Origin: Squalus acanthias
Lineage: Eukaryota
Length of the DNA stretch: 64,000 nucleotides
Assembly: GCA_030390025.1 (NCBI GenBank)
Contig: CM059432.1
Span: forward strand, 310,001-374,000
Direction of reading: 5' to 3'
Positions 15,607 through 39,799 of this stretch are shown here, in pieces. Made by a program: the position numbers and the translations under genes. The notes under the pieces were generated by a model that was not told the origin of the DNA, searched no databases, and was given only the letters and a program-made list of their open reading frames with translations. Each line of letters starts with the position of its first letter. Within the stretch, counting starts at the first letter, position 1.

Positions 15607-15720
15607 GGGCTCAGTGGGTATCACTCTCTCACCTGTCAGTCAGAAGGTCGTGGGTTCAAGCCCCACTCCTGAAACTTGAGCACAAAAATATAGGCTGACA
15701 CTCCAGTGCAATACTGAGGT
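15607..15720 (+). mobile_element. tRNA-derived head of a DeuSINE-type SINE leading into the 33-bp array
   Basis: A box ggctcagtgg, B box ggttcaagcc, then gctgacactccagtgcaatactgag, as in the copy at 29342. Confidence 0.8.
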
Positions 15721-18700
15721 AGGCCTGCACTGTCGGAGGGGCAGTACTGAGGGAGCGCCGCACTGTCAGAGGGACAGTACTGAGGGAGCACCGCACTGTC
15801 GGAGGGGCAGTACTGAGGGAGCTCCGCACTGTCGGAGGGACAGTACTGAGGGAGAGCTGCAATGTCGGAGGGGCAGTACTGAGGGAGCGCCGCACTGTCG
15901 GAGGGGCACTACTGAGGGAGCGCCGCACTATCAAAGGGGCAGTACTGAGGGAGCTCCGCACTGTCGGAGTGACAGTACTGAGGGAGCTCCGCACTGTCGG
16001 AGGGACAGTACTGAGGGAGCTCCGCACTGTCGGAGGGGCAGTACTGAGGGAGCTCCGCACTGTCGGAGGGACAGTACTGAGGGAGTGCTTCACTGTCGGA
16101 GGGGCAGTGATGAGGGAGCGCTGCACTGTCGGAGGGGCAGTACTGAGGGAGTGCTGCACTGTCGGAGGGGCAGTACTGAGGGAGCGCCGCACTGTCAGAG
16201 GGGCAGTACTGAGGGAGCGCTGCCCTGTTGGAGGGGCAGTACTGAGGGAGCTCCGCACTGTCGGAGGGGCAGTACTGAGGGAGCTCCGCACTGTCGGAGG
16301 GACAGTATTAGGGAGTGCTTCACTGTCGGAGGGGCAGTGATGAGGGAGCGCTGCACTGTCGGAGGGGCAGTACTGAGGGAGTGCTGCACTGTCGGAGGGG
16401 CAGTACTGATGGAGCGCCGCACTGTCAGAGGGGCAGTACTGAGGGAGCGCTGCCCTGTTGGAGGGGCAGTACTGAGGGAGCGCTGCACTGTCAGAGGGGC
16501 AGTACTGAGGGAGCACCACAGTGTCGGAGGGGCACTACTGAGGGAGCGCCGCACTGTCAGAGGGGCAGTACTGAGGGAGTGCTTCACTGTCGGAGGGGCA
16601 GTGCTGAGGGAGCGCTGCACTGTCGGAGGGGCGGTACTGAGGGAGCGCTGCACTGTCGGAGGGGCAGTACTGAGGGAGTGCTGCACTGTCGGAGGGGCAG
16701 TACTGAGGGAGCGCCGCACTGTCGGAGGGGCACTACTGAGGGAGCGCCGCACTATCAAAGGGGCAGTACTGAGGGAGCTCCGCACTGTCGGAGTGACAGT
16801 ACTGAGGGAGCTCCGCACTGTCGGAGGGACAGTACTGAGGGAGCTCCGCACTGTCGGAGGGGCAGTACTGAGGGAGCTCCGCACTGTCGGAGGGACAGTA
16901 CTGAGGGAGTGCTTCACTGTCGGAGGGGCAGTGATGAGGGAGCGCTGCACTGTCGGAGGGGCAGTACTGAGGGAGTGCTGCACTGTCGGAGGGGCAGTAC
17001 TGAGGGAGCGCCGCACTGTCAGAGGGGCAGTACTGAGGGAGCGCTGCCCTGTTGGAGGGGCAGTACTGAGGGAGCTCCGCACTGTCGGAGGGGCAGTACT
17101 GAGGGAGCTCCGCACTGTCGGAGGGACAGTATTAGGGAGTGCTTCACTGTCGGAGGGGCAGTGATGAGGGAGCGCTGCACTGTCGGAGGGGCAGTACTGA
17201 GGGAGTGCTGCACTGTCGGAGGGGCAGTACTGATGGAGCGCCGCACTGTCAGAGGGGCAGTACTGAGGGAGCGCTGCCCTGTTGGAGGGGCAGTACTGAG
17301 GGAGCGCTGCACTGTCAGAGGGGCAGTACTGAGGGAGCACCACAGTGTCGGAGGGGCACTACTGAGGGAGCGCCGCACTGTCAGAGGGGCAGTACTGAGG
17401 GAGTGCTTCACTGTCGGAGGGGCAGTGCTGAGGGAGCGCTGCACTGTCGGAGGGGCGGTACTGAGGGAGCGCTGCACTGTCGGAGGGGCAGTACTGAGGG
17501 AGTGCTGCACTGTCGGAGGGGCAGTACTGAGGGAGTGCTGCACTGTCAGAGGGGCAGTACTGAGGGAGCGCCACACTGTCGGAGGGGCAGTACTGAGGGA
17601 GCGCCGCACTGTCGGAGGGACAGTACTGAGAGAGCACTGCACTGTCAGAGGGGCAGTACTGAGGGAGCGCCGCACTGTCAGAGGGGCAGTACTGAGGGAG
17701 CGCCACACTGTCGGGGGGGCAGTACTGAGGGAGCGCCGCACTGTCAGAGGGGCAGTACTGAGGGAGCGCTGCACTGTCAGAGGGGCAGTACTGAGGGAGT
17801 GCTGCACTGTTGGAGGGGCAGTACTGAGGGAGCGCTGCACTGTCGGAGGGGCAGTACTGAGGGAGCGCCGCACTTTCAGAGGGGCAGTACTGAGGGAGTG
17901 CTGCACTGTCTAGGGGCAGTACTGAGGGAGCGCTGCACTGTCAGAGGGGCAGTACTGAGGGAGTGCTGCACTGTCTAGGGGCAGTACTGAGGGAGCGCAA
18001 CACTGTTGGAGGGGCAGTACTGAGGGAGCCCCGCACTGTCAGAGGGGCAGTACTGAGGGAGCGCTGCACTGTCGGAGGGGCAGTACTGAGGGAGCACCAC
18101 ACTGTCAGAGGGGCAGTACTGAGGGAGCGCTGCACTGTCAGAGGGGCAGTACTGAGGGAGCGCTGCACTGTTGGAGGGGCAGTACTGAGGGAGCACCACA
18201 CTGTCGGAGGGTCAGTGCTGAGTGACTGCTTCACTGTCAGAGTGGCAGTGCTGAGGGACTGCTGCACTGTCGGAGGGGCAGTACTGAAGGAGCACCGCAC
18301 TGTCGGAGGGGCAGTACTGAGGGAGTGCTGCACTGTTGGAGGGGCAGTTCTGAGTGAGTGCTGCACTGTCGGAGGGGCGGTACTGTGGGAACGCTGCACT
18401 GTCGGAGGGGCAGTACTGAGGGAGCGCTGCACTGTCGGAGGGGCAGTACTGAGGGAGCGCTGCACTGTCGGAGGGGCAGTACTGAGGGAGCACCGCACTG
18501 TCGGAGGGGCAGTACTGAGGGAACGCTGCACTGTCGGAGGGGCAGTACTGCCGCACTGTCGGAGGGGCAGTACTGAGGGAGTGCTGCACTGTTGGAGGGG
18601 CAGTTCTGAGTGAGTGCTGCACTGTCAGAGGGGCAGTACTGAAGGAGCGCTGCACTGTCGGAGGGGCAGTACTGAGGGAGCGCTGCACTGTCGGAGGGAC

Positions 18701-19142
18701 AGTACTGAGGGAGCGCGGCACTGTCGGAGGGACAGTACTGAGGGAGCATTGCACTGTCAGAGGGGCAGTACTGAGGGAGCGCCGCACTGTCGGAGGGACA
18801 GTACTGAGGGAGCATTGCACTGTCAGAGGGGCAGTACTGAGGGAACGCTGCACTGTCGGAGGGGCAGTGCTGAGGGAGCGCCGCACTGTCGGAGGGACAG
18901 TACTGAGAGAGCACTGCACTGTCAGAGGGGCAGTACTGAGGGAACACTGCACTGTCAGAGGGGCAGTACTGAGGGAACACCGCACTGTCGGAGGGGCAGT
19001 GCTGAGGGAGCGCCGCACTGTCGGAGGGACAGTACTGAGAGAGCACTGCACTGTCAGAGGGGCAGTACTGAGGGAGCGCCGCACTGTCAGAGGGGCAGTA
19101 CTGAGGGAGCACCGCACTGTCGGAGGGGCAGTACTGAGGGAG
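15706..19142 (+). repeat. 33-bp minisatellite (CAGTACTGAGGGAGCGCCGCACTGTCGGAGGGG)n, about 104 units, with an 824-bp higher-order duplication
   Basis: Read directly. Rare variants recur 824 bp apart, for example actatcaaag at about 15927 and 16751, and gtattaggg at about 16305 and 17129. Confidence 0.97.
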
Positions 19143-19290
19143 CCCCTCCGACAGTGCAACCCTCCCGCAGTACTGTCCCTCTGACAGTGCAGGGCTCCCT
19201 CAGCCCTGCACTGGGAGTGTTAGTCTGGATTATGGGCTCAAGTCTCTGGAGTCGGACTATGAACCCACAACCTTCTGACTCAGAGGACAG
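19143..19290 (-). mobile_element. Inverted SINE head plus about two inverted 33-bp units closing the array
   Basis: The reverse complement reads ctctgagtcagaaggttgtgggttcatag...ctaacactcccagtgcagggctgagggagccctgcactgtcagagggacagtactg. Confidence 0.8.
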
Positions 19291-19495
19291 CAGATTTCCT
19301 TCCCTAAAGGGCATTAGTGAACCAGTTGGGTTTTTGTGACAATCCCACAGCTTCTTGCTCACTTTTACTGAGACCAGATTTTAAAGAAAGTGAATTCAAT
19401 ATTCTCAGACGGCCCTGGTGGGATTTCAGCTCACAGTCTCCGGATTACCAGTCCAGGTCCCCGGGTTACTGGTCCAGTAACGTGACAGTTACCAG
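19291..19495 (-). mobile_element. Older partial copy of the tRNA-headed SINE seen at 23135-23596
   Basis: cagatttccttccctaaagg...gaaccag.tgggttttt...ggtgggatt...ccagtaac matches 23368-23572. Confidence 0.6.
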
Positions 19496-19769
19496 GTACA
19501 GGCAAGCATCTCCTGGGATGCCAGATTCCCAGATCTGACTGATACCATGAGGTCGACTCTCTCGCAGAGCATTCACTCGGATGTACCAGGTTTGAGGGAC
19601 TTCAGCTTCAAAAGAGAACTGGAAAAATGCTTGAAGGGAAACATTCGCAGGGCTATGTGGAAAGAGTGGGGGGGAGTGGGACTAATTGGAGAGCATCATC
19701 CAAGAGCCGCTACAGGCTCGATGGGCCGAATGGCCTCCTTCTGTGTTGTGTCGTTCTGTGATTCGATGA

Positions 19770-20185
19770 TAAGGAGATATTCGGACAGGTGACCCAAAGC
19801 TTGGTAAAAGAGGCAGGTTTTAAAGAGCGTCTTAAAGGAAGTGAGAAAGGTCGAGAGGTTTAGGGAGGGTATTCCAAAGTTTGGGGCCTTGGAATGAAGG
19901 CACGGCCGCCAATGGTGGTGCAGAGGGAATCGGGGATGCTCAAGAGGCCAGAATTGGAGGAGTGCAAAAATCTCGGAGGGTTGTGGGGCTGGAGGAGGTC
20001 ACAGAGATAGGGAGGGGGTGAGAGGCCACGGAGGGATCTGATAACCAGGATGGGAATTTTGAAATTGAGGCGTTGCCAGACCGGGAGCCAATGTCGGTCA
20101 GCGAGTACGGGGGCGATGGGCGAACGGGACTCGGTGCGAGTTCGGACACGGGGCAGCAGAGTTTTGGATGAGCTCAAGTTGTGGT
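19770..20185 (-). mobile_element. L2-type LINE 3' fragment
   Basis: ORF 19860..20177 contains PVLADRHWLPVWQRLNFKI and TIGGRAF; homologous to 1-285. Confidence 0.75.
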
Positions 20186-20917
20186 GGGTGGGAGGTGGGA
20201 GGCCGGCCGGGAGAGCGTTCAGGGTTACTTGGGCTACTGGCGGCCCAACGGGAAACCTGACCGCTGGAGCCCACCACCAACATTTCTGTGTCCGCTTTCC
20301 TTAATGTTGTGCTGGGAGGAGCAGACGTTCCAATCCTGACTCCTTAGCTCGACCGCAGGCCGCAGATGAACCCCTCCCATTTGACCGCCGCCCCCCCCAC
20401 CCCCCCCACCACTCCCGCACTTCAGGCGAGACAGAAGGCCCCAAAACTGGAGGAAACCGTAACGAGGCGCTGGCACCCAATGAGGCCCAAGGACCAACAT
20501 CGAGTGGTCCTTGCGCCAGTTTCTACCGGCGAAGCGAGGCAGTGTCAGCGGCGCCTGGTTATCGCTCGAGAACGGGCGCGAACAGATTTATCCCTCAGCG
20601 GCTGACGAGAATGTGGAACTCGCTGCCACGGGGAGTGGGTGAAGCAAATCGAATTGAAGCATTTAAGGGGGATGCTTGATGCTTCTATGAGGGAATAGAG
20701 GGATATGGGGAAGAGGCAAATAGAGTGGGAGGAGGCTGGTGTGGAGCATAAACGCCGTCACAGACCAGTGGGGCCGAATGGCCTGTTTCTGTGCTGTACC
20801 TTCTGTGTAATGTCATTAATCTATCAGTGAAGCAACACTTAGTAAAGAAAGACTTGCATTTGTATAGCGCCTTTCACAACCTCAGGACGTCCCAAAGTGC
20901 TTTACAGACAATTAAGT

Positions 20918-22940: not shown

Positions 22941-23134
22941 AGTGTTTGGGAGGGGCTGTGGAAGAAGCCTTGGCGAGTTGCTGCAGTGCTTCCTGTGGAT
23001 AGGACACGCTGCAGACATGGGGCAGGGAGTTGAGATACAGCTCAGTCATTGAATGGCAGAACAGGCTCGAGGGGCTGAATGGCCTCCCCCTGTTCCTTTG
23101 TTAATGGTGGTGGACAGGCTGCCGATCAAGCAGA

Positions 23135-23596
23135 CTTTTTTTTTTTAATTTGTTTTATGGGATGTGGGCGACGCTGGCAAGGCCGGCATTTATTGCCCAT
23201 CCCAAATTGCCCCTTGAGAAGGTGGTGGTGATCCGCCTTCTTGAACTGCTGCAGTCCGTGTGGTGAAGGTACTCCCACAGTGCTGACTTTGTTGTAGTGG
23301 TTTGGTAAAACTGAGTGTCTCGCTCGGCCATTTCAGAGGGCAATTAAGGCCAGACCGGGTAAGGGCGGCAGATTTCCTTCCCTAAAGGACGTTAATGAAC
23401 CAGATGGGTTTTTACAACAATCCGGTAGTTTCATGGTCACCATTACTGATACTAGCTTTTTATTCCAGATTTATTTAATTAACCGAATTTAAATTCCCCA
23501 GCTGCCATGGTGGGATTGGAACTCGTGTCTCCAGATCATTAGCCCAGGCCTCTGGATTACTAGCTCAGTAACATAATCACTATGCTACCGTACCCC
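23135..23596 (-). mobile_element. tRNA-headed bipartite SINE (body similar to the family A 5' region, tail equal to the family A 3' end)
   Basis: Head ggggtacggtagcatagtg...gagttccaatccc. The body matches about 553-720 and the tail matches about 4633-4765, followed by poly(A). Confidence 0.7.
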
Positions 23597-24114: not shown

Positions 24115-24132
24115 TGGTGACGAGGATGGGAT
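24115..24132 (+). promoter_or_regulatory. Primer-binding site, probably tRNA-Ser(GCU)
   Basis: tggtgacgaggatgggat lies 3 nt after the LTR end TTACA. It matches 17/18 of the complement of the vertebrate tRNA-Ser(GCU) 3' end (ATCCCATCCTCGTCGCCA) as recalled. Confidence 0.75.
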
Positions 24133-24367
24133 CCCAAAGTCATTTTTAGGATCATGGAAGGACACAGTGTTCAACCTTCGAGTGGACAAGTTTAAGGTGA
24201 ATTTGTGACACCTAAACTGAATTTTTTGCAATGTTTTACCATTAATGCTGATGCAGAATCCTCTGTGCTTCACCTTTGTGTGTTTGTATACACAGCAACA
24301 GCAGTGTTGATTCTCACAGGTACACAGGTATCGTGCTGAGTCACTGTTCAACGGGATCGGGACATTC

Positions 24368-25200
24368 ATGGCCGCATCTACGGGATTCATCGGAAGCCTC
24401 GGTTGTATGACCGAGCTCGCGAACCATTCAGTTCTTACATTGAGCAGATGGAGATTTTTTTTAGGGCCAATAACATTATTGAGACCGAAGGTGTAGATGA
24501 GAATGTTCAAGCTCAAAATGAAGTAATTTATGAACGGAAGAAAGCAACTTTTCTAACCGAGATCGGGCCTGATGTCTACGGAACGTTGACAAACCTACTC
24601 GCGTCAGGGAAAGCGAAGGATGCGTCGTTTGAAGACATTGTCGAGAAACTCGAGGACCATTTCGACCCAAAGCCGTTAGAAATAGCAGAGAGCTATAAGT
24701 TTGGTACCAGAAACCAAAAACAGAGTGAAATCATCAGTGAGTACATTGTAGCTCTTAAGAACCTGTCTTTGCATTGTAACTTCAGCACATTTTTGGATCG
24801 TGCGTTGCGAGATAAGTTTGTGTGTGGACTGGTGGATGAGCGCACACAGTCCAAGTTACTGAACACTCCGAACCTAACATTTGACATAGCATGCAAAATT
24901 GCCCTATCTATAGAGATGGCGTCTAAGAATACTCGGGAGCTCTGTCCAACTCAAGTGACAAGTGCAGCTGTGGTCTACAGTCACAAAGCCACCGCCAAAC
25001 CTAAAGCTCTGAGAGCGAGTCAAAAGCATGTCGGTGAGAGCAGTTCAGTGAATTGTTATCGCTGCAAGGAAGTCACTCACCACAGTCCTGCCAAAGCAGA
25101 AATGTGAAGTGTTTTCACTGCCAGAAGCAAGGCCATATTTCAACAGCTTGCAGAGCTGGATCGAAAGCAGGAAGTAAGAACCATTCTAGTGGCAATGCAA
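24368..25200 (+). pseudogene. Gypsy gag, frameshifted
   Basis: ORF 24403..25107 has FFRANNI, LRDKFVCGL and CYRC. The CCHC knuckle CFHCQKQGHISTAC follows in a shifted frame at about 25110-25152. Confidence 0.85.
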
Positions 25201-26787
25201 AGCAGTGACAATAAAAGGGACGAGTTCACAATATTGAAGTGAACACACCTGATGTTGAAGAACTAGGCATCCAAAATGTAATATATGTGGGTAGAACTCT
25301 GCCCCTAAGCGGCAACGCTAGCAGTTGTGAGAAAGACTTCCATACAAAACTTTTGATCAACGACCAATATATTGATATGTGTATCGACACGGAGGCGGAC
25401 TGCTCTATCATGAGTAAGGACACATATGAGAGTAAGTTTAAATCAAGTACCATTTACAAAGAGTACCGTAGAGTTCAAAACCTACTCCGGAGAAATCCTA
25501 GAGACATGTGGACAAATGGAATGTACAGTTCAGCACGATGGCCAGTCAGTAAAGCTGCCTATTATTGTAGCGAGCTACAACAGGCCAACTCTCATGGGAA
25601 AAGACTGGTTGAGAAAGTTAGAACTAGACTGGAAAAACATCTTCAGTGTAGATGCTTCAAAGAAGCGACTCGACACAATGCTGAACAAGTATGAAAGCAA
25701 GTTCACAGACAGTTATGAGGGCAGCACTGGGTATGACGCGCATATCCACATCAAGTCCAACGCAAAGCCTGTCTATTGTAAGGCAAGGCCAGGTCCCCTG
25801 TGTGTTGAAAAGTCAGGTGGAGGAAGAGCTAGAGAACTCAGAGAGAACGGAGTGCCAATAAAAACTGACAAAAGTGAATGGGCTACCCCGATTGTGGTAG
25901 TGCCCAAAGCAAACAAAACTGTACGCTTGTGCGGTGACTACAAAGTTATTATCAACCAAGCAGTTGACGATGAGCAGTACCCATTACCTACATCACAAGA
26001 TTTGTATGCAGCACTCTCTGGGTCAAAGGTTTTCTCCAAGCTTGACCTGTCGCACGCTTACGCTCAGCTGAATGTTGACAAAGAGAGTCAACAGTATCTC
26101 ACTATCAACACACACAAGGGACTGTACTCGTACACCAAGCTGCCGTATGGTGTAAAGTCCTCCCCCAAAATCTTCCAGGCTACGATGGATAAGATTTTGC
26201 AAGGAGTTCCAAATTGCTTATGTAATCAAGACGATGTGCTGCTCGCAACAAGCAGCGAGGAAGAAAATCTAGACGTGTTAGATTTAGTGCTTCAAAGGTT
26301 GAATGCCCACAATGTCAAATTGAAAAGGAGCAAATGTGCTTTTGTGCAGCCCGAGATTGTGGACCTTGGTCTGAAAGTTGATGCAAATGACTTGCAACCA
26401 GTGAAGGAAAAGGTTGATGCTGTCGTCAATGCTCCAAAGCCACAGAACATGTCTGAGTTAAGATCTTTCCATGGAATGGTCCAGTACTATGCACGTTTCT
26501 CACCTCAGTTAGCGACCATGTTAGCTCCATTGCACGAGCTCCTCAAGAAGGATGTCCAGTGGAAGTGGACGAAAGCGCAACAGGAAGCTTACGTCGCTTG
26601 TAAGAGAAGTCTCTCCAGCGATGCTCTACTTGTGCACTACGACACAGAGCGTGAGCTTAAGTTAGCGTGTGATGCTTCCAGCGACGGTGTGGGAGCTGTC
26701 ATAAGCCACGTAATGGATGACGGTCAAGAAAAACCAATCACGTTCGCATCGCGAACCCTCACAAAGAGCGAAAGAAACTACACACAA

Positions 26788-29153
26788 AACCTACATATAG
26801 ACTGGGCAAACCAAACTGGGACCAGTGTCCTGGCGAACCGAATAACTAGAGCACTAGACAGGGCTTTAAACTAATGATGGGGGGTTGGGAAGATTCAGGA
26901 AAGAGTAAATTTAAAAGCAGCGAGAGAAATGTCATGGCTCTAGAGCAGAGTAGAGTTTTCGGTAAAAATAAGCAGAGTGGGTCAGGAAGGGACAGAGAGA
27001 GTATTCGATCAAAGGAAGAGGCTTTTAATGTTGCCAAAAAGAGTAGTAAGCCTGAGGATTGGGAGGATTTTAGAATTCAGCAAAGGAGGACCAAGAAATT
27101 GATAAAGAAAGGGAAAATAGAATATGAGAGTAAACTAGCGAGAGACATAAAAACAGACTGTAAAAGCTCTATAGGTATGTAAAAAGGAAAAGATACAGTA
27201 TTTAAGAAAGGCGGGAGAGAGAAAACAGGGAATGACAGACCAGTTAGCCTGACATCAGTAGTAGGGAAAATGCTTGAATCTATTATTAAGGACGTGGTAA
27301 CAGGGCACTTAGAAAATAATAATAGAATTGGGCAGAGTCAACACGGATTTATGAAAGGGAAATCGTGTTTGACAAATCTGTTAGAGTTTTTTGAGGTTGT
27401 AACTAGCAGAATAGATAAGGGGGAACCAATGGATGTGGTGTATTTGTATTTTCAGAAGGCATTCGATAAGGTGCCACACAAGAGCTTATGAAACAAAATT
27501 AGGGCTCATGGGATTGGGGGTAATATACTAGCATGGATTGAGGATTGGTGAACGGACAGAAAACAGAGAGTAGGAATAAACGGGTCATGTTCGGGTTGGC
27601 AGGCTGTAACTAGTGGGGTACCGCAAGGATCAGTGCTTGGGCCTCAGCTATTCACAATCTACATCAGTGATTTGGATGAGGGGACCAAATGTAATATATC
27701 CAAATTTGCTGATGATACAAAGCTGGGTGGGAATGTAAGTTGTGAGGAGGATGCAAGGAGGCTTCAAGGGGATATAGACAGGCTAAGTGAGTGGGCAAGA
27801 ACATGGCAAATGGAATATAGTGTGGAGAAATGTGAAGTTATCCACTTTGGTAGGAAAAATAGAAAAGCAGAGTACTTTTTAAATGGTGAAAGATTGGGAA
27901 AAGTTGGTGTTCAGAGGGACCTGGGTGTCCTTGTACACAAATCACTGAAAGTTAACATGCAGGTACAGCAAGCAATTAGGAAAGCAAATGGTATGTTGGC
28001 CTTTATTACAAGAGGATTTGAGTATAAGAGTAAAGACGTCTTACTGCAATTATATAGGGCCCTGGTGAGACCACACCTGGAGTATTGTGTACAGTTTTGG
28101 TCTCCTTACCTAAGGAAGGATATACTTGCCATAGAGGGAGTGCAACGAAGGTGCACCAGACTGATTCCTGGGATGGGGGGATTGTCCTATGAGGAGAGAT
28201 TGAGTAGACTAGGCCTATATTCTCTAGAGTTTAGAAGAATGAGAGGTTATCTCATTGAAACATACAAAATTCTTACAGGGCTTGACAGGGTAGATGCAGG
28301 GAGGATGTTTCCCCTGGCTGGGGAGTCTAGAACCAGGGGTCACAGTCTCAGAATAAGGGGTCGGCCATTTAGGACTGAGATGAGGAGAAATTTCTTCACT
28401 CAGAGGGTGGTGAATCTTTGGAATTCTCTACCCCAGAGGGCTGTGGAGGCTCAGTCGTTGAGTATATTCAAGACAGAAATCGATAGATTTTTGAATATTA
28501 AGGGAATCAAGGGATATGGGGATAGTGCAGGAAAGTGGCATTCATAGAATCATAGAATCATGGAAAGTTACAGCACGGAAGGAGGCCATTTTGGCCCATC
28601 GTGTCCGCGCCGGCCAACAAAGAGCTATCCAGCCTAATCCCACTTCCCAGCTCTTGGTCTGTAGCCCTGCAGGTTACAGCATCCCAAGTGCACATCCAAG
28701 TACTTGTTAAATGTGGTTAGGATTCCTGCCTCTACCACCCTTTCAGACAGTGAGTTCCAGACCCCCACAACCCTCTGGGTGAAGAAATTTCCCCTCAAAT
28801 CCCCTCTAAACCTTCCACCAATTACTTTAAATCTGTGCCCCCTGGTTTTTGACCCCACTGCTAAGGGAAATAGGTCCTTTCTATCCACTTTATCTATGTC
28901 CCTCATAATTTTATACACCTCAATAAGGTCTCCCCTCAGCCTCCTCTGTTCCAAGGAAAACAGACCCAGCCTATCCAGTCTTTCCTCATAGCTAAGATTC
29001 TCTACTCCCGGCAACATCCTTGTAAATCTCCTCTGTACCATCTCTAGTGCAATATAGTTGAGGTATAAGAGCAGCCTTGATCTTATTGAATGGCGGAGCA
29101 GGCTCGAGGGGCCAAATGGCCGACTCCTGCTCCTATTTCTTATGTTCTTATGT
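26788..29153 (+). mobile_element. CR1 LINE inserted in the Gypsy RNase H, with internal deletions
   Basis: ORFs 26874..27182, 27270..27491 and 27633..28547; 3' UTR at 29054-29153. Confidence 0.9.
28541..29053 (-). mobile_element. 5'-truncated CR1 inserted near the stop codon of the previous CR1
   Basis: ORF 28634..29041; tail (tctatgat)n at about 28541. Confidence 0.88.
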
Positions 29154-29481
29154 TAAAAGGAAGCACTCGCCATAGTGTTTGGAATCAAGAAATTCAACAG
29201 TTCCTGATCGGCAGAAAGTTTACCCTGATAACCGATCACAAACCTGCTCCTAGCAATATTGGGGCCCAAATCTGCCATCCCTGCAATGGCCGCATCAAGA
29301 ATGCAATGTTGGGTGGTGTTGTTGTCACAATATTGTCACAGTGTCAGCTGTTGTTCAGTGGGTAGCACCCTCCCCTCTGAGTCGGAAGGTTGTGGAGTCA
29401 AGTCTCTCTCTAGAGACTCGAGCAGAAAAATCTAGGCTGACACTCCAGTGCAGTACTGAGGGAGCGCCGCACTGTCGGAGA

Positions 29482-32400
29482 TCATAGAATCATAGAAATT
29501 TACAGCACAGAAGGAGGCCATTCGGCCCATCGTGTCCATGCCAGTCGACAAAGAGCTATCCAGCCTAATCCCACTTTCCAGCTCTTGGTCCGTAGCCCTG
29601 TAGGTTACAGAGCTTCAAGTGCATATCCAAGTACTTTTTAAATGTGATGAGGGTCTCTGCCTCGACCACCCTTTCAGGCAGTGAGTTCCAGACCCCCACC
29701 ACCCTCTGGGTGAAAAAAGTTCTCCTCAACTCCCCTCTAATCCTTCTACCAATTACTTTAAATCTGTGCCCCCTGGTTATTGACCTCGCTGCTAAGGGAA
29801 ATAGGTCCTTCCTATCCACTCGATCTCGGCCCCTCATAATTTTATACACCTCAATTAAATCTCCCCTCAGCCTCCTCTGTTCCAAAGAAAACAACACCAG
29901 CCTATCCAATCTTTCCTCATAGCTTAAATTCTCCAGCCCAGGCAACATCCTCGTAAATCTCCTCTGCACCCCCTCTTGTGCAATCACATCTTTCCTGTTA
30001 TGTGGTTACCAGAACTGCATGCAGTATTCTAGCTGCGGCCTAACTTCATTAAGATGGAGAGTGAAGTAGTTGACTCAGAGACTAGGGTCCTGAATTTAAA
30101 TAAAGGAAACTACGATGGTATGTGACGCGAATTGGCTAGGATGGATTGGGGAACGTTACTTAAAGGGTTGACGGTGGATAGGCAATGGCAAACATTTAAA
30201 GATCGCATGGATGAACTACAGGATTTGTTCATCCCTGTTTGGCATAAAAATAAAACAAAAAAGGTGACTCAACCGTGGCTAACAAGGGAAATTAGGGATA
30301 GCATAAGATCCAAGGAGAGGACATATAAATTGGCCAGAAAAAGCAGCAAACCTGAGGATTGGGAGCAGTTTAGGATTCAGCAAAGGAGGACAAAGGATTA
30401 ATTAAGAGGGGGAAAATAGAGTATGAGAGTAAGCTTGCAGGGAACATAAAAACTGACTGTAAAAGCTTCTATAGATATGCGAAGAGAAAAAGATTGGTGA
30501 AGTCAAGCTTAGGTCCCTTGCAGTCAGAATCAGGGGAATTTATAATGGGGAACAAAGAAATGGCAGACCAATTAAATACATATTTTGGTTCTGTCTTCAC
30601 AAAGGAGGACACAAATAACCTCCCAGAGATGTCGGGAAACATAGGGTCTAATGAGAGGGAAGAACTGAATGAAATCAGTATTTGTAGGGAAATGGTGTTA
30701 GGGAAATTGATGGGATTGATGGCCGATAAATCCCCAGGGCCTGATAATCTACATCCTAGGGTACTTAAGGAAGTGGCTCTAGAAATAGTAGATGCATTAC
30801 TGGTCATCTTCCAAAATTCTATAGACTCTGGAACAGTTCCCATGGATTGGAGGGTAGCTAATGTAACCCCACTATTTAAAAAAGGTGGGAGAGAGAAAAC
30901 GGGGAATTATAGACCGGTAAGCCTGACATCGGTAGTGGGGAAAATGCTAGAGTCCATTATAAAAGATGTAATAGCAGAGCACTTGGAAAACAGTGACAGG
31001 ATCGGACAAAGTCAACATGGATTTACAAAAGGTAAATCATGCTTGACTAATCTACTGGAATTTTTTGAGGATGTAACTGATAGAATAGATAAGGGAGAAC
31101 CAATGGATGTGGTGTATTTGGACTTTCAGAAGGCTTTCGATAAGGTCCCACATAAGAGATTAGCGTGCAAAGTTAAAGCACATGGGATTGGGGGTAAGGT
31201 ACTGACTTGGATAGAGAACTGGTTGGCAGACAGGAAGCAAAGAGTTGGAATAAACAGGTCTTTTTCCGAGTGGCAGGCAGTGACTAGTGGGGTACCGCAG
31301 GGATCGGTGCTAGGACCCCAGTTATTCACAATATATATTAATGATCTAGACGAGGGAACTAGATGTAATATCTCCAGGTTTGCAGATGACACAAAGCTGG
31401 GTGGGCGTGTGTGCTGTGAGGAGGATGCAGAGAAATTCCAGCATGATTTGGACAGTTTGGGTGATTGGGCAGATGCATGGCAGATGCAGTATAATGTGGA
31501 TAAATGCGAGGTTATCCACTTTGGTGGCAAAAACAGGAAGGCAGATTATTATCTGAACGGCAATAGATTGGGAAAAGGGGAAGTGCAACGAGACCTGGGA
31601 GTCCTTGTGCACCAGTCGTTGAAGGTAAGCATGCAGGTGCAGCAGGCGGTTAAGAAGGCAAATGGTATGTTGGCCTTCATAGCGAGAGGATTCAAGTACA
31701 GGAGCAAGGATGTCTTGCCGCAGTTGTACAGGGCCTTGGTGAGACCACACCTTGAGTATTGTGTGCAGTTTTGGTCGCCTTATCTGAGGAAGGATGTTCG
31801 TGCCATGGAGGCAGTGCAGCGAAGATTCACCAGACTGATACCTGGGATGGCAGGAATGACCTATGAAGAGAGATTGGGACGATTGGGCTTGTATTCGCTA
31901 GAGTTTAGGAGAATGAGAGGGGATCTCATTGAAACTTATAAAATTCTAACAGGACTAGACAGACTAGATGCAGGAAGGATGTTCCCGATGGCGGAGGAGT
32001 CCAGAACTAGGGGTCACAATCTAAAGATAAGGGGTAAGCCATTTAGGACTGAGATGAGGAGGAATTTTTTCACCCAGAGAGTGGTGAACCTGTGGAATTC
32101 TCTACCACAGAAGGCAGTTGAGGCCAATTCATTAAATATATTCAAGAAGGAGTTAGATATATTTCTTAAGGCTAAAGGGATCAAGGGATATGGGGAGAAA
32201 GCAGGGACAGGGTACTGAATTTGGATGATTAGCCATGATCTCATTAAATGGCAGAGCAGGCTCGAGGGGCCGAATGGCCTACTCCTGCTCCTATCTTCTA
32301 TGTTTCTATGTTTTTATGTAGTGTTTTATACAGTTCAAGCATAACCTCCCTGCCCTTATATTCTATGCCTCGGCTAATAAAGGCAAGTATCCCGTATGCC

Positions 32401-33018
32401 TTCTTAACCACCTTATCTACCTGTACTGCTACCTTCAGGGATCTGTGGACATGCACTCCAAGGTCCCTCTGATCTTCTGCACTTCTCAGTGTCCTACCAT
32501 TTATAGTGTATTCCCTTGCCTTATTAGCCCTCCCCAAATGCATTACCTCACACTTCTCCAGATTGAATTCCATTTGCACCTGACCAGTCCATTGATATCT
32601 TCCTGCAGTCTGCAGCTTTCTTCTTCATTATCAACCACACAGCCAATTTTTGTATCATCTGCAAACTTCTTAATCATACTTCCTACATTCAAGTCCAAAT
32701 CATTGATATATACCACAAAAAGCAAGGGACCTAGTACTGAGCCCTGCGGAACCCCACTGGAAACAGCCTTCCAGTCACAAAAACACCCTTCGACCGTTCC
32801 CCTTTGTTTCCTGCCGCTGAGCCAATTTCGGCTCCAACTTGCCACTTTGCCTTGGATCCCATGGGCTTTTACTTTCGTGACCAGTCTGCCATGCGGGACC
32901 TTATCAAAAGCCTTGCTAAAATCCAAAGAGACTACATCAAACACTCATCGACTCTCCTTGTTATCTCCTCAAAAAATTCAATCAAGTTAGTCAGACACGA
33001 CCTTCCCTTGACAAATCC
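29482..33018 (-). mobile_element. CR1 LINE split by a plus-strand CR1
   Basis: ORFs 29565..29987, 32298..32579 and 32543..32944. Confidence 0.88.
30045..32318 (+). mobile_element. Young CR1 (family B) with an uninterrupted 574-codon RT and C-terminal ORF (30494..32218)
   Basis: [46 protein letters not shown] and FADD motifs; 5' truncated. Confidence 0.93.
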
Positions 33019-34051
33019 ATGCCGTCTTTCGGATGAGATGCTAAACCGAGGCCCTGTCTGCTCCCTCAAGTGGACATAAAAGATTCCATGGCACTATTTC
33101 AAAGAAGAGTAGGGGAATTATCCCCGGTGTCCTAGCCAACATTTATCCCTCAATCAACATCACGAAAACAGATTATCTGGCCATTATCTCATTGCTGTTT
33201 GTGGGAGCTTGCTGTGCGCAAAATGGTTGCCGCGTTTCCTACATTACAACAGTGACTACACTTCAAAAAGTACTTCATTGGCTGTTAAGCGTTGTGGTCG
33301 TGAAAGGGGCTATAGAAATGCAAGTCTTTCTCTGCTTTTACATGACTACACGATTGAATATCGCACTTCAAAGCAGAACACAATCGCAGATGCCTTGTCC
33401 AGGTTGCCACATGAGGACTCATGTGTTGGGAGTGAAGGTGAGATTTTCACACTAGGTGCAGTTGACAAAGACTTTCCCGTGAATGCAACTGAGATTGCAG
33501 ATGAGACTCAAAAGGACTCAGTACTGAAAAGAGTGTATGAAAACACCTTGAATGGACGGACTGATCAGTGTCTGGACACAGAGTTGAAACCATTCCATAA
33601 CCGTCGCACTGAATTGTCTTGTGAGTAAGGTTGTATCAAGTGGGGAAACAGAGTCTGGTACCTACTTCTTTGAGAGATAGAATTCTGGCCGAACTTCATA
33701 TTGAACATCCAGGGATCGTCAGCATGAAATCAATTGCAAGAAGCTTTGTTTATTGGCCTGGATTGGACAGTGATCTTGAACCACTTGATCATGAACACAT
33801 ACAGGAGTTTGACTCAGTTCAGACTTCAGTAACTGAAGTACTAGGTTCAAACAAGTCTGAGATAGAAACAGGATCATCTTTGAGTTCGGAACCAAAACAA
33901 AACAGCCCGAAAATTGGTTCAACACCAAAACCGTCTGTAAGGAGATCAGGAAGGCTCCGCAAACCTGTTATTAAACTGGATTTGTAGTTCGTTTAAAAGA
34001 AAAAAAGCCGAGAGTTTTTGTTCTGTGGTACACGTAATGCTGGGAAAGGTG

Positions 34052-35730
34052 TATAAGGTTTCCAAAATTTACAGATCCCCAAAACCTAAGGAAAAAGGAC
34101 TTTGGAACTACCTCCGAGTGATAAAATTGCATTTGGGCCTAACATAAGGAATTTAAGACCAAAAACCAAGGTTTGGCATTTTAAAAACATGTCTGGGCCT
34201 GTAAAGGGAGAAAAGGCTGTGAAAGAAGATGGGATTGACCTCTGTAAAAGCAGTTTTGGTTATTGCAGTTAATTGCACTGTCTGGGGAACCAGGATGACC
34301 CTACTCAAGCCCCAGCAGGCATTAACATTTTGACAATAGACCCTGGGAGAAGACAGTCCCACCCAAAATAACAGGCCCCATCAAACCGATTACAGGGCCC
34401 ATCAGAAAACATGCATAATACAAATCACTCAGGACCAGTCTATAGAAAAGACTGAGTCCAGCCTAGAAACCCAAAACACGAAACCAATCACCAGTGATCA
34501 GCCAAGGAGATCGACAGGTTGCAAACCATCCCAAAACCCATTTGACACTTACAGAGCAGGTCCTGGTGACAGGCCCACCAAAAAAACAGACAATGAACTG
34601 AGTAGATTTGGCGGGTAGATAAGGCCATGTTCAATGGGTAAGATTGAAGGCCTGTTAAAAACCCAGTTCACGCGCTAGTAAGTCGTTACCGATTTACGAG
34701 CCCGCCAAAAACCAGACAATAAACTGAGTAGATTTGGCGGGTAGATAAGGCCACTTCAATTTAGTATAATTGAAGGCCCATCAAGCAGTTCAAGGTGGAG
34801 TGGAACAGTCAGTCGCAACCGGTGGTCATCAGAAGAAGAAGAAACCAGGAAGAAGAAAACCCGAGCTGGAAGCGAGTCGGCATCGCTCACCACTCAGACA
34901 CACCTGAGTCCAGCTCGTGAAGATACCACCTCGACGGACCTCCAACAACAGTCCCAACACAGTCACCCGGAGCAACAAGCAGCAACAAGTCACCGATGGC
35001 TCCACGAGGTCGACCAACACATTAAACAAGGCCTAAAGCCATCGCGGAAACCAAAGGCCTCATGAAACCAACAACCGCGCATTACCCCCAACTGACGGGT
35101 AATAGCAGGCCACCGCGACCAACAAAGACCAACTCCAGGGAAGAAAACCCGAAGAACCGCAAAGTTTCCACTCTCCAATCTACTCCTGACTTACCCCTGG
35201 GTAAGATTTTCCCAAAGACTCTAAGCCCTACTGCTAAACCAAAGAAATTGGGTACTCACCAGATAAATCCAAAACGACATCCTACCGCATCAGCGGACTC
35301 GCGAAGACTGACCAGAGACTCAGGTGAAGTCCTCTACCGCGTACGGGGTACGGCAGACACTAACCGCCATAAACAGCGAACCCCAAAACCGCGATTTAGC
35401 CCAACTGTCAAAGGATTGGTGAGCATTATCCCTGGTCCTTCAAAGCCTAACTTAGCTAGTAAAGTGGGGTTGGGAGGGGTGAAGTATTGTTCTACTGTCA
35501 TTTCCCTCGCTTGTACCGAAGTGTTCCCCACCTTTAGAGTATAAGAGTGTTATTATTTGTGTCTTACCTTTTCAATAAAGATTGAAGTTCTTTCATCAAA
35601 CTCAGTTGTCTGCTGCACCTTTTGTATCACAACCCCCAAATAAGTCCAAGGTCCAGAACCAAGGGAGTGGGAGCGATTCGAACCGCTCAGAAGTCAGAGG
35701 TAAAGCTGACACAAACCACCACCCCCTACA
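34052..35730 (+). mobile_element. Candidate 1.68-kb solo LTR inserted in the Gypsy 3' UTR
   Basis: Flanked by the 4-bp direct repeat GGTG (34048-34051 and 35731-35734). Ends are tataagg and ccctaCA. Internal direct repeat of about 45 bp (about 34583 and 34708), TATA-like tataat at about 34765 and AATAAA at 35574. No recognisable coding domain. Confidence 0.55.
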
Positions 35731-36744
35731 GGTGGGACCATAGTTTTGTTGTATTTGAGACGGGAATATGTACATTTCTTTTAAGGGGGAAAGCAGTGTA
35801 ATGTATTATCACATGGTTTGTCACATGGTTTGGTATGAGCATGCTCAGTTCGCTCTGGCCTAATGAAGCAAGCACATGGACTAGCAACTCATCCTGTCTC
35901 TGTCCTTCATTTGTTCTATCCACATATATTACTGAGTTCTGTGGTTATGGTTTCTGCGTGGACATCAGGCAAAAACACCATCTAAGTTGGCCGTGATCTC
36001 TGCCTCTCTCTGATCCAGTGAGCGAGTGGTCAGTCTATCTCTGAGGAGATGGTGGGAGCAGATAGTGGTGGTTCATTCAAATGCAAATTAAATAGATTTC
36101 ATTAAGAAGATAATATTTTGAGATTGAGTCTGTGAGTAATTTGAGACATGACGTGGGGAGGGCAGCGTGCTCGGGAGGAACCGGTGACTTTGAACCTCTG
36201 GTTCCCAAAGCTCTCCACCACTGGGGGGTTTCCTCACCTCCTGTCTGGGTCTGTTGGAGACTCATTGATAGAGATTGATTGTTGTAATTGGTCAACAACT
36301 CCATTATCGCCGGATCATGTGACTACCTGGATGGTAGAAGGTGAACTAGATGCACCCTGGTCTCTTTCGTCCAGCAATTCCTATCTTCCTTAATGACCAG
36401 ATAATCTGTTATAGGTGTTGGTTGAGGAATAAATATTGTTTCCACAGATGAGTTTTGAATTTCCCCCCTTCAAGGGCAGGCCGTGTCCTCTGGTCCAACT
36501 GTTCTGGCCAAGGTGAAGCAGCTCGTCATGGGCGACATTATCTGGTCCCTTTAGAATCCTAAAAACAGTAATCGTATCACTTCTCGACAATCCAGTGAGA
36601 ACATGCTCAATTGACACACTCGCTCCTCACAATCCAATCCCTCCGTCCCCATCAATCACCCTCTCTTCTGTATCCTTTCAACAGCTGAAATATGTCCTGC
36701 GGTGATCAGAACAGTACACAGTTTTCTAAATTCATTCACACCAA

Positions 36745-37950
36745 CGCTGGGAGTATGTTTCCCTTGGCTGGAACCAGGGGCCACAGCCTCAGGATGAAGG
36801 GTAGGTCATTCAGGACTGAGATGAGAAGAAATTTCTTCACACAGAGGGTGGTGAATCTTTGGAATTCTCTACTCCAGAGGGCTGTGGAGGCTCAGTCATT
36901 GGGTATATTCAAAACAGAAGCCGATAGATTTCTGACTAGTAAGGGCATCAAGGGATATGGCGATAGGGCCGGTGAATGGAGTTGAGGCAGAAGATCAGCC
37001 ATGATCTCATTGAATGGCGGAGCAGGCTCGAGGGGCCGAATGGCCGACTCCTGCTCCTATTTCTTATGTTCTTATGTATAAAGGGGCAGGATTATTTCAC
37101 TATTTTGGCTCAATATCAATCTTTTGATACATCCCAACATCTGTTTTGCTGTTTCATCCGGTGTTGGGTTGTGTCCATAGGACAATTGAGTATAAGATGA
37201 GGCATACTACTTTGTCCTTGTAAAAGACCTTAGTCAGGCCGCACTTGGAATACTGTGTCCAGCTTTGGTCTCCTCACATGGTGGGTGATATTGAGGCTTT
37301 GGGAGAGGGTGCAGAGGAGGGCCACTAGACTAATTCCCAGTCTAAAGCATCTTAGTTATCAAGATAGGCTAAAAGAGTTGGGAGTCTACACTTTAGAGAA
37401 GCGTAGATTTAGAGGGGATCTGATTGAGGTTTATAAGATAATGAAGGGAATAGATTGTGTTCCAGTTCACAGTTTGTTTCAATTAAATAGGTTAGGGAGG
37501 ACTGGGGTGACAAATTTAAATTGTATAAGGCTAGATCCAGGTTAAATGTCAGGAGGTGGGTCTTTTCCCAGAGAATAGTGGACCTCTGGAACAGGCTGCC
37601 GTCTCGTGCGGTGGATGCTGATTCGTGGAATTTCTTCAAGCGAGAGCTAGCCCTGTTTCTGGTTGGGGCGGAGATCACCTCTTACAGAAGGTAGGTACTG
37701 CAGGGAATTCAGGGCCAGAGTGATCTCCTGGACTAGTTTCGATCGCCTAGATGATTCGGAGAGGAATTTCCCAGATTTTTTCCCCTAAATTGGCCTGGGT
37801 TTTTAATCTTTTTCTTTGCCTTTCCCAGGAGATCACATGGTTTCGGGTAGGGTGGAGAGTGTATGTTGTGATACACAAGATATCGCAATTGTGTGGGACA
37901 GGCTCGAGGGACCAGAGGGTCTTTACCTGTCTGTCATTGTTCGTATGATC
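36745..37950 (+). mobile_element. Two tandem CR1 3' fragments of different subfamilies
   Basis: ORFs 36692..36985 and 37255..37545 carry CR1 C-terminal motifs and 3' tails. Confidence 0.8.
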
Positions 37951-38501
37951 GGATGCAAATTGGCTGCCGCGTTTCCTACATTACAACAGTGACCACACTT
38001 CAAAAAGTACTTCATTGGCTGTAAAGCGCTTTGGGACGTCCTGAGGTTGTGAACGGTGCTGTGGAAATGCAAGTCTGTCTCCCTGTAACTGCTATAAGGA
38101 ATCCTCCCTCCCCACTCCTTTCAGACAAGTGTCCTATTGGAGATTCTCCTCTATCTTTATTTCTTAGAAGGGGGGGGAGGGAAGGAGAGAGGCCACTGCA
38201 GATGTGTGGCCCCCACCTAGCTGGACCCACAGCCCGAGGACGATGGGGAGGAGAGGCTAGTCAGTACAGCAGGCCTTCTTCTAACTGAGCATCTGCTCAA
38301 AGGGGCCTCGTCGGTGTCAGCATATCAATGCCACATCCGGACTGCAACCAGAGCAATGTCTGCACAAACAACTTTTGAGCAAGCTCCATTTCCATCCAAA
38401 CCCACAGCTTGTGACTACGCACTGCTTCTCACCACAGTACTTCCTCTTTGCTGCTAGTTGCTGATGGCATACAACCTTAACGCTAACCTAGTGCTCCACA
38501 G

Positions 38502-39799
38502 TGTCAGCCGTGGCTCAGTGGATAGCACTCTCCACTCGGAGTCAGAGGGTCGTGAGTTCAATCCCCCTCCAGAGGATTGAGCACGCAATCCCACCGCAAT
38601 AATGAGCGAGTGCCGCACTGTCAGAGGGGCAGTACTGAGGGAGGGCCGCACTGTCGGAGGGGCAGTACTGAGGGAGCGCCGCACTGTCGGTGGGTCAGTA
38701 CTGAGGGAGTGCCGCACTGTCAGAGGGGCAGTACTGAGGGAGCGCCGCGCTGTCGGTGGGTCAGTACTGAGGGAGTGCCGCACTGTTGGAGGGGCAGTAC
38801 TGAGGGAGCGCCGCACTGTCGGAGGAGCAGTACTGAGGGAGCGCTGCACTGTCGGAGGAGCAGTACTGAGGGAGCGCCGCACTGTCAGAGGGGCAGTACT
38901 GAGGGAGCACCGCACTGTCAGAGGGGCAGTACTGAGGGAGCGCCGCACTGTCAGAGGGGCAGTACTGAGGGAGTGCTGCACTATCAGAGGGGCAGTACTG
39001 AGGGAGTGCTGCACTGTCGGAGGGGCAGTACTGAGGGAGCGCCGCACTGTCAGAGGGGCAGTACTGAGGGAGTGCTGCACTGTCGGAGGGGCAGTACTGA
39101 GGGAGCGCTGCACTGTCAGAGGGGCAGTACTGAGGGAGTGCTGCACTGTCAGAGGGGCAGTACTGAGGGAGCGCTGCACTGTCGGAGGGACAGTACTGAG
39201 GGAGCGCTGCACTGTCGGAGGGGCAGTACTGAGGGAGCGCCGCACTGTCGGAGGGCAGTACTGAGGGAGCGCTGCACTGTCGGAGGGGCAGTACTGAGGG
39301 AGCGCCTCCCTGTCGGAGGGGCAGTGCTGAGGGAGCGCCGCACTGTCAGAGGGGCAGTACTGAGGGAGTTCCACACTGTCGGAGGGGCAGTACTGAGGGA
39401 GTTCCGCACTGTCGGATGGTCAGTACTGAGGGAGTTCCGCATGGTCGGAGGGGCAGTACTGAGGGAGCGCCGCACTGTCAGAGGTGCCGTCTTTGGGATT
39501 AGACGTTAAACCGAGGCCCCTTCTGTTCTCTCAGGTGGATGTAAAAGATCCCATGGCACTATAGCAAAGAAGAGCAGGGGAGTTCTCCCCGGTGTCCTGG
39601 GCCCAATATTTATCACTAAAACAGATGATCTGGTCTTCATCACATTGCTGTTTGTGGGAGCTTGCTGTGCACAAATTGGCTGCTACATTTCCTACATTAC
39701 AACAGTGACTACTCTCCAAAAGTACTTCATTGGCTGTGAAGCATTTTGGGACGTCCTGTCCTGAGGTTGCGAAAGGCGCTATAGAAATGCAAGTTCTTT
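38502..39799 (+). mobile_element. Complete DeuSINE-type SINE with an internal 33-bp array
   Basis: tRNA head gtcagccgtggctcagtgg...gagttcaatcc, then the array, then gtgccgtctttgg...aaaccgaggcccc and an L2-type tail. Confidence 0.85.
38602..39482 (+). repeat. 33-bp minisatellite, about 27 units, same unit as 15706-19142
   Basis: Read directly. Confidence 0.97.

What the first reader, a model, noticed from the sequence alone, without database searches (positions are those of the whole stretch)
15607..39799. A SINE that repeatedly seeds the same 33-bp minisatellite from an internal hairpin
Seen: three states of one DeuSINE-type family occur in this window: one unit (29448-29480), about 27 units inside an otherwise complete SINE (38602-39482) and about 104 units (15706-19142). 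The unit lies just 5' of the Deu-like domain and derives from the stem-loop cagtgcagtact-gaggg-ag(c/t)gc(c/t)gcactg. Inference: either a VNTR-bearing SINE subfamily that retrotransposes with its array (analogous to SVA), or a hairpin that triggers expansion after insertion. Either would be a genome-wide minisatellite generator, which I do not recall being described for this family.
Basis: partly seen in the sequence, partly recalled or inferred. Interest (0 to 1): 0.7.

Follow-up and report, generated by a model that had tools for sequence, protein, structure and literature searches.

The report
Shark SINE carrying expandable 33-bp minisatellite
A common short jumping gene in this shark-like genome contains a 33-base stretch that was most likely duplicated once, spread as a short repeat and then grown in place into arrays of up to about 100 copies, which is a shark version of a process already described in mice, humans and snakes.

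Summary
The arrays are real: 104.5 and 27 units of 33 bp, each behind a tRNA-type SINE head. Two details need correcting. The 104-unit copy has no tail and is fused to a fourth, inverted two-unit copy. The one-unit copy is split by a LINE exactly at the unit's end. Plain slippage from the one-unit form predicts T at the unit junction. All three multi-unit copies have G there, and none of the 130 tiled junctions has T. Contigs of two other runs, from organisms A and D, show the same G junction and far more unit depth than head depth. This points to one founding duplication, not repeated seeding by the hairpin; amplification actually weakened the hairpin. Unit order is not shared between arrays, and the long array holds an exact 824-bp duplication inside an old SINE, so length is gained after insertion. 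SINE-born minisatellites are known (mouse B1, Alu, snake sSat3). I found no description for this family; Repbase and Dfam could not be checked.

The parts
15607..15707 (+). SINE head of copy 1 (tRNA-type, A- and B-box-like motifs)
   Evidence: differs from the majority letter of laid contigs at about 10 places in 15630-15740
15708..19145 (+). Array 1: 104.5 units of 33 bp, no SINE tail behind it
15863..17535 (+). Exact higher-order duplication in array 1: 849 identical bases at a lag of 824 (units 6-30 = units 31-55)
19114..19157 (.). Fusion point of array 1 with the inverted copy (2-nt overlap near 19144-19145), inside a 16-bp perfect inverted repeat formed by the two opposed units
19146..19211 (-). 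Two units of a separate, inverted SINE copy; its first unit forms a perfect 12-bp hairpin; both junctions carry G
19212..19286 (-). 5'-shortened head of the inverted copy (minor head type), fused to the 5' part of another tRNA-SINE family at 19284-19500
29341..29447 (+). Head of the one-unit SINE copy; sits inside a Gypsy-like pol fragment
   Evidence: Gypsy-like reading from self-matches to the pol region
29448..29480 (+). Single 33-bp unit with native 5' context (stem-loop); begins with the 7-nt direct repeat whose partner opens the tail
29481..33020 (-). 5'-truncated LINE inserted at the end of the unit, with a + strand CR1-like LINE nested at about 30045-32318 (RVT_1 ORF 30374-32218)
33021..33333 (+). 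Body and tail of the one-unit SINE copy
38501..38595 (+). Head of copy 2 (13-nt deletion before the first unit)
38596..39484 (+). Array 2: 27 units; the last unit runs into the native SINE body
39485..39800 (+). Body and tail of copy 2
14745..15056 (+). Body-and-tail-only copy of the same SINE, directly behind a CR1-like 3' end
55040..55217 (-). Older copy of the same SINE in which the core of the hairpin is deleted

Best explanation
One birth, spread by retrotransposition, growth in place. (1) Inferred: in an ancestral SINE of about 455 bp, a 33-bp segment between two 7-nt direct repeats (6 of 7 alike) was duplicated by slippage or unequal exchange, and the new junction took a T-to-G change. 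(2) Inferred: master copies with a few units stayed transcribable by RNA polymerase III and kept their LINE-type tail, so they were copied to many loci before the lineages of organisms A and D split. (3) Shown in the sequence: each array then evolved on its own, by point mutation (much of it at CpG sites) and by single-unit and block duplications up to 25 units long. (4) Inferred: arrays also collapse or recombine. The first unit keeps the native 5' side and the last keeps the native 3' side, so collapse restores a perfect one-unit SINE, and two facing copies can fuse and lose both tails, as at 19145. The hairpin is probably a structural element of the SINE RNA that may help at step 1 but is not what drives the expansion.
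For: Junction: the slippage-predicted 10-mer occurs 0 times on either strand of the window; of 130 tiled junctions (104 + 26; one is mis-tiled at a deletion) none has T at the site, 2 have A and the rest G; the inverted copy also has G. These are three loci, not 130 independent events. In one search the loose-end consensus sequences of runs X1 and X11 show the G junction, and no row lists T at 15740 or 15773, while neighbouring sites do list variants (15741 G>T 9% and 8%; 15774 A>G 74% and 79%, A>T 9% and 9%). Abundance: 215,721 (X1) and 50,486 (X11) records were laid on 193 bp, with summed depth about 129 and 20 times higher at the junction than in the head. Growth in place: 0 shared three-unit runs; 1 shared two-unit run against 0.49 expected (P 0.41, 5000 shuffles); 849 identical bases at lag 824; tails of the host copies only 85-88% alike (255/301, 274/310, 268/309). 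No run of four T on the sense strand of head plus array 1; one in the tail of copy 2, where three other copies have three T. Mechanism precedent: 5-10-bp flanking repeats as the origin of minisatellites, as summarised in PMC6947457 (passages).
Against: No genome was held, so the link between arrays and a SINE subfamily was not tested. Multi-unit copies sit on two head types (copy 1 resembles the one-unit copy, the inverted copy has a minor type also seen), which one young master would not give. One search shows 40 of 46 difference rows and warns that some differences in X1 were not counted, and it lists no T from one-unit copy ends either, so rare T junctions could be hidden. Contig depth is not copy number: after allowing a 31-fold overcount the junction-to-head ratio could be as low as 4.2 (X1) and 0.64 (X11), and the head used is diverged. 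Run X1 may be the source sample. None of the 16 listed pieces bridges head and second unit by 31 bases. No target-site duplication was found for copy 2 or the one-unit copy. The 824-bp duplication could be an assembly error.
Confidence: 0.6

Rival explanations
1. Invasion of resident copies. The array arose once but spreads at the DNA level: a break in or near the unit of a one-unit SINE is repaired from an array elsewhere (gene conversion or template switching), which turns old SINEs into array carriers without retrotransposition.
For: It explains the shared G junction equally well. Arrays occur on two head types. Host copies with arrays are as old as the one-unit copy (tails 85-88% alike). 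Non-CpG junction variants (A, T at the next base) recur in both arrays and both runs. Several rearrangements fall at or near the unit: LINE insertion at 29481, hairpin deletion near 55120, fusion at 19145, break at 14745.
Against: Only 33 bp of homology is offered by a one-unit target, which is short for ectopic conversion (general knowledge). Many variants seen twice or more in array 1 are absent from array 2, so exchange between loci is not frequent now. Collapse of arrays and module exchange between SINE masters also explain two head types.
Confidence: 0.2
2. Repeated independent seeding: the hairpin stalls replication or reverse transcription and each one-unit copy can start an array on its own.
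For: The hairpin is real in first units (RNA -10.5 to -25.0 kcal/mol). The inverted copy has a perfect stem with both arms changed, which suggests template switching across the stem (one case, inferred). One old copy has lost the hairpin core. The 7-nt direct repeats are in every copy. Independent expansion inside B1 SINEs is a recalled precedent (Bois 1998, seen only as a citation).
Against: Every birth would have to make the same untemplated T-to-G change: 0 T among 130 tiled junctions, three loci, and G in both runs. Folding of 116 internal units is weaker with the real junction (mean DNA -4.1, RNA -11.6 kcal/mol) than with the slippage junction (-5.0, -12.9) or the one-unit context (-6.6, -13.7).
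Confidence: 0.1
3. SVA-like subfamily: long arrays are copied whole with the SINE, so array length and order are mostly inherited from the master.
For: Copy 2 has head, 27 units and tail (about 1.3 kb) with no run of four T before position 39744. An earlier unchecked note in this genome describes 3.3-kb tRNA-headed elements, so long Pol III-type transcripts may be possible.
Against: No shared unit order; an exact 25-unit duplication inside a host about 9% away from the majority head sequence; only one of three multi-unit copies has both ends.
Confidence: 0.1

Closest known systems
SacSINE1 (DeuSINE superfamily; Nishihara 2006, not read; described in PMC5499810, parts 1-3 of 6 read, and PMC2746220, passages)
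   Same: tRNA-type head, body and short 3' tail; one-unit copy is 140 + 313 = 453 bp against 463 bp for SacSINE1; SacSINE1 is reported from dogfish, whale shark, little skate and elephant shark.
   Different: PMC5499810 has no occurrence of 'tandem', 'minisatellite', 'repeat unit' or 'hairpin' in its main text. Its supplements were not available. Sequence identity to the consensus was not tested.
SINE-derived satellites of squamates, above all snake sSat3 (PMC10702118, parts 1-4 of 5 read)
   Same: Tandem unit cut from inside a tRNA-SINE at a fixed position; terminal units run on into the SINE; one shared unit across a clade; hundreds of units in long loci; variable unit number at orthologous loci.
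   Different: Units there are about 67-290 nt and in snakes include the B box; here 33 nt, downstream of the promoter, so head and tail stay intact. There loci with both SINE ends are uncommon and number in the thousands; here the rough count of junctions is 100,000 or more. The authors leave open whether the process occurs outside squamates.
Minisatellites born in mammalian SINEs: mouse B1 (GGCAGA)n family (Bois 1998) and Alu-derived minisatellites (Jurka and Gentles 2006); seen only as citations and table rows in PMC6947457
   Same: Minisatellite grown from an internal SINE segment; short flanking direct repeats as the start (Haber and Louis model, as summarised there).
   Different: Those units are 6-8 nt in the table seen and, by recall, expand independently at many loci; here a shared derived junction points to one origin.
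SVA (SINE-VNTR-Alu) of apes; features recalled, PMC10681720 seen only in a search listing
   Same: Non-autonomous retroposon with an internal GC-rich tandem repeat of variable length.
   Different: SVA is a young composite, L1-mobilised element whose VNTR is in all full copies (recalled); here the host is an old tRNA-SINE, one-unit copies exist, no target-site duplication was found, and unit order is not shared.

Membership tests
SacSINE1 / DeuSINE | tRNA-derived head with A and B boxes | tested here: inconclusive
   Box-like motifs are in the consensus of five heads (box consensus recalled). ARAGORN and Rfam found nothing in the window, as is common for decayed heads.
SacSINE1 / DeuSINE | Sequence similarity to the Deu domain | not testable with these tools
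   No consensus available; supplements of PMC5499810 not held. Resemblance is recalled only.
SacSINE1 / DeuSINE | Length near 463 bp | tested here: met
   453 bp for the two halves of the one-unit copy against 463 bp (PMC2746220).
SacSINE1 / DeuSINE | 3' tail shared with an L2 LINE | not tested
   Self-comparison of the window showed tail matches only to other SINE copies and fragments; no partner LINE was at hand.
SacSINE1 / DeuSINE | Host is a cartilaginous fish | tested here: inconclusive
   Organism names are coded; earlier unchecked notes call this genome shark-like.
SINE-derived satellite (sSat, PMC10702118) | Tandem unit is an internal part of a SINE | tested here: met
SINE-derived satellite (sSat, PMC10702118) | Terminal unit continues into the SINE up to its end; four or more middle units | tested here: met
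   Array 1 has the 5' end, array 2 both ends.
SINE-derived satellite (sSat, PMC10702118) | Unit of about 70-290 nt from a Squam1-3 SINE | tested here: not met
   Unit is 33 nt; host SINE is read as a different family. It works like an sSat but is not one of the named families.
SINE-derived satellite (sSat, PMC10702118) | Subtelomeric enrichment | not testable with these tools
   No genome held.
SVA-type VNTR retroposon | VNTR present in all full copies and inherited with the element | tested here: not met
   One-unit copy exists; no shared three-unit runs between arrays.
SVA-type VNTR retroposon | L1-type target-site duplication and poly(A) tail (recalled) | tested here: not met
   No duplication over 4-5 nt in the flanks of two copies; tails end in short T-rich repeats.
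Minisatellite born between short direct repeats (Haber and Louis model) | 5-10-bp direct repeats flank the unit in the unamplified form | tested here: met
   7-nt repeats, 6 of 7 alike, 33 bp apart: 29448 and the start of the body (39484 in copy 2; 33021 in the split copy).

The most novel reading that the evidence does not exclude
A single mutation-marked duplication inside the main Deu-type SINE of sharks founded an undescribed, clade-wide family of hundreds of thousands to millions of 33-bp units, carried to new loci inside still-mobile SINE RNAs (or invading resident copies), still expanding long after the host copies aged, and acting as a hotspot for rearrangement. It could make up a percent or more of some shark genomes and differ several-fold between species.
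Probability: 0.35. Interest if true: 0.65.

Novelty: new variant of a known kind. Interest (0 to 1): 0.45.

Why it matters
How minisatellites are born and dispersed is hard to study because the founding state is usually lost. Here the one-, two-, 27- and 104-unit states survive side by side and a single junction base separates descent from independent birth, so the question can be settled by a census in any long-read shark assembly. If the rough counts hold, this repeat is a sizeable and unannotated part of shark genomes, a source of length polymorphism and assembly trouble, and it extends SINE-derived satellites beyond squamates, a point PMC10702118 leaves open. No function for the host is shown or implied.

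Tried and rejected
Whole-genome search: no genome held. Pattern scans for the unit found 0 matches in viral contigs, prokaryote genomes and metagenome contigs. Raw-read runs X23 and X24 gave 22 and 2 laid reads from 1,523 and 1,315 million letters, too few to use; they may be other animals or carry-over, and I draw nothing from them. Of the 14 runs holding 60-77% of the words (organisms A-E, 5 studies) only X1 and X11 were laid. Protein route: three word-index searches with translated units gave 2, 6 and 1 hits and the full HMMER search 226, 150 listed; the ten best looked up were unrelated repeats or unnamed; only unnamed records (P0034, P0128, P0163, perhaps P0030) look like translated units, so no taxonomic range came out; the hits were not inspected by eye, only by motif scan. 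Coding function of the arrays: rejected; open frames in several phases follow from a stop-poor 33-bp unit. Fold-back inversion at 19145: rejected, because the inverted units and head differ from array 1 (73 of 98 head columns alike); loss of the spacer between two facing copies fits better (inferred). G-quadruplex drive: no motif with loops up to 12 nt, only with loops up to 17 (40 and 11 matches); not pursued. Shared polymorphic sites 14, 17 and 26 of the unit are CpG positions and were not used as evidence of descent. Literature: ten searches found no description of this array; the library lacks most subscription papers, including Nishihara 2006, and Repbase, Dfam and SINEBase were not searchable. 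Look-ups of earlier scan notes by sequence, words and relatives returned nothing on this repeat.
Full report
Observation. Tandem Repeats Finder gives two arrays with the same 33-bp unit: 15708-19143 (104.5 copies) and 38596-39484 (27.0 copies). Self-comparison of the window shows a SINE head in front of each, and a third head with one unit at 29341-29480. Outside the arrays a 25-nt piece of the unit matches only at 29452 (+), 19207 (-) and 19174 (-), each behind a head. Units make up about 6.9% of the window.

Corrections to the anatomy. Array 1 has no tail. At about 19145 it meets a separate copy on the minus strand, with two units and a head that lacks its first 30 or so bases and is itself fused to another tRNA-SINE family. 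The inverted head matches the head of array 1 at only 73 of 98 columns, so this is not a fold-back of the same molecule. Loss of the DNA between two facing copies is my inference. The one-unit copy is split: a minus-strand LINE with a nested CR1-like LINE fills 29481-33020, and the SINE body resumes at 33021 with 1 to 4 bases lost or ambiguous. The two halves add up to 453 bp. Further copies are a body-and-tail piece at 14745-15056, two tail fragments, and an older copy at 55217-55040 with the hairpin core deleted.

What the family is. Layout and length fit SacSINE1, a 463-bp tRNA-derived Deu-SINE (PMC2746220, passage), reported from dogfish, whale shark, skate and elephant shark (PMC5499810, parts 1-3 of 6 read). 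I could not align to its consensus because the supplements are not held, so the name is likely but untested. In that paper the zebrafish Deu match spans SacSINE1 positions 124-258; the unit lies at 108-140 of the one-unit copy, so it would abut or overlap the start of the domain if the coordinates carry over.

Where the unit comes from. In the unamplified form the unit lies between two 7-nt direct repeats, GTGCAGT and GTGCCGT, 33 bp apart. That is the arrangement from which minisatellites are thought to start, as summarised in PMC6947457 (passages). The unit overlaps a 12-bp stem with a 5-nt loop, right behind the closed head domain. But the repeat boundary follows the direct repeats, not the stem.

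The junction test. Slippage on those repeats gives GAGG-TG-CAGT at each junction. That 10-mer is absent from both strands of the window; the arrays have GAGG-GG-CAGT (93 exact matches) with GA and GT variants. Of 130 tiled junctions none has T at the site, two have A, one is mis-tiled at a deletion. The inverted copy has G too. Junctions within one array share descent, so this is three loci. To widen it I laid four runs on 15600-15792. X1 (organism A, possibly the source sample) laid 215,721 records and X11 (organism D, another study) 50,486. Their loose-end consensus sequences show the G junction. No T row is listed at 15740 or 15773, while 15741 and 15774 list the GT and GG/GA variants at similar shares in both runs. 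Limits: 40 of 46 rows were shown, X1 was not fully counted, and T from one-unit copy ends is not listed either. X23 and X24 gave 22 and 2 reads and were set aside. A T-to-G change with no template in the one-unit form, shared by all multi-unit copies seen, is most simply one event.

Scale. Summed contig depth is about 129 times (X1) and 20 times (X11) higher at the junction than in the head. The tool warns that this is no copy number. With single-copy depths that I took from a few listed records (17 and 3.3) and an overcount of up to 31-fold for short contigs, my rough range is 0.5 to 15 million junctions in X1 and 0.16 to 5 million in X11, and at least 4.2 and 0.64 junctions per head. The head used is diverged and may be undercounted. 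Fourteen runs of five coded organisms hold 60-77% of the sampled words of copy 2; those words include head and tail, and only two of these runs were laid.

Growth after insertion. The two arrays share 6 unit types but no three-unit run, and one two-unit run against 0.49 expected. Array 1 holds 849 identical bases at a lag of 824, a 25-unit block, plus smaller repeats of variant units. The host copies are old: tails are 85-88% alike and heads 66-77%. So length was gained long after insertion, unless the block is an assembly error, which I could not check.

The hairpin. For 116 internal units the mean folding energy is weaker with the real junction (DNA -4.1, RNA -11.6 kcal/mol) than with the slippage junction (-5.0, -12.9) or the one-unit context (-6.6, -13.7). 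Arrays still fold as RNA (z -3.8 for three units). Signs that the stem matters at all: a perfect stem with both arms changed in the inverted copy, the deleted core at 55 kb and the LINE inserted at the unit's end; each is a single case. I read the hairpin as a feature of the SINE RNA that may favour the first event but does not drive expansion.

Mechanism and rivals. Best reading (0.6): one founding duplication, spread of few-unit masters by retrotransposition, independent growth and occasional collapse at each locus. Main rival (0.2): the array spreads at the DNA level into resident one-unit copies; it predicts the same junction, and arrays on two head types favour it a little. Repeated hairpin seeding (0.1) fails the junction test. 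Whole long arrays copied as in SVA (0.1) fails the unit-order test, on one pair of arrays only.

Comparison with what is known. The closest described system is the SINE-derived satellites of squamates (PMC10702118, parts 1-4 of 5 read): fixed internal unit, SINE ends attached, one shared type across snakes. Their units are longer, their loci number in the thousands, and the authors do not know whether the process occurs elsewhere; they also mention earlier reports of SINEs with short (about 30 nt) internal duplications, which I did not read. Mouse B1 and human Alu minisatellites are older precedents, seen here only as citations. For this family, PMC5499810 never uses 'tandem' or 'minisatellite', the dogfish genome paper mentions SacSINE1 only as a library entry (passages), and PMC4824008, PMC3747384 and PMC11481361 (passages) add nothing on it. 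Ten searches found no description, but Nishihara 2006, Repbase, Dfam and SINEBase were out of reach, and unseen supplements could show the array. Unchecked notes on this genome report other retroposon-born arrays of 49 and 28 bp, so it may simply be prone to them.

Verdict. Real, abundant and probably unreported for this family, but a new variant of a known kind. Interest 0.45.

Noticed in passing
window 19284-19500 (-), 23350-23590 (-), about 560-648: A second tRNA-headed SINE family; one copy is fused through a 3-nt overlap to the shortened head of the inverted copy. It may be the head that earlier notes describe on a 3.3-kb LINE; not tested.
   Followed up: partly
window 19178-19286 (-): This head and first unit fold far better than shuffles (z -6.8), while two other heads do not (z -0.4, -0.1); it may be a better-paired subfamily or template-switch repair.
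   Followed up: partly
window 53071-54075 (-): Intronless open frame of 334 aa with a strong Actin match; exon or processed copy not determined.
   Followed up: partly
window 44088-45353 (-), also about 13172-14179: Harbinger-like transposase frame of 421 aa (DDE_Tnp_4) and a decayed relative.
   Followed up: partly
window 59685-63772 (+): L1/Tx1-like element: long first frame and an endonuclease-bearing second frame.
   Followed up: partly
window 24340-26874 (+) and around 29160-29340, 33340-33600: Gypsy-like gag-pol remains (RVT_1, RNase H); a second piece hosts the one-unit SINE and its nested LINEs.
   Followed up: partly
window 5225-7466 and 57047-59005: A 250-copy 9-bp purine/pyrimidine array and a 2-kb CA-rich array.
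   Followed up: no
whole window: Many CR1-like LINE copies of several subfamilies, 64-96% alike, often nested in one another.
   Followed up: no
proteins P0034, P0128, P0163: Unnamed predicted proteins that contain translated 33-bp units; P0034 joins them to what looks like an exon of a host gene. Probably gene-calling artefacts.
   Followed up: partly
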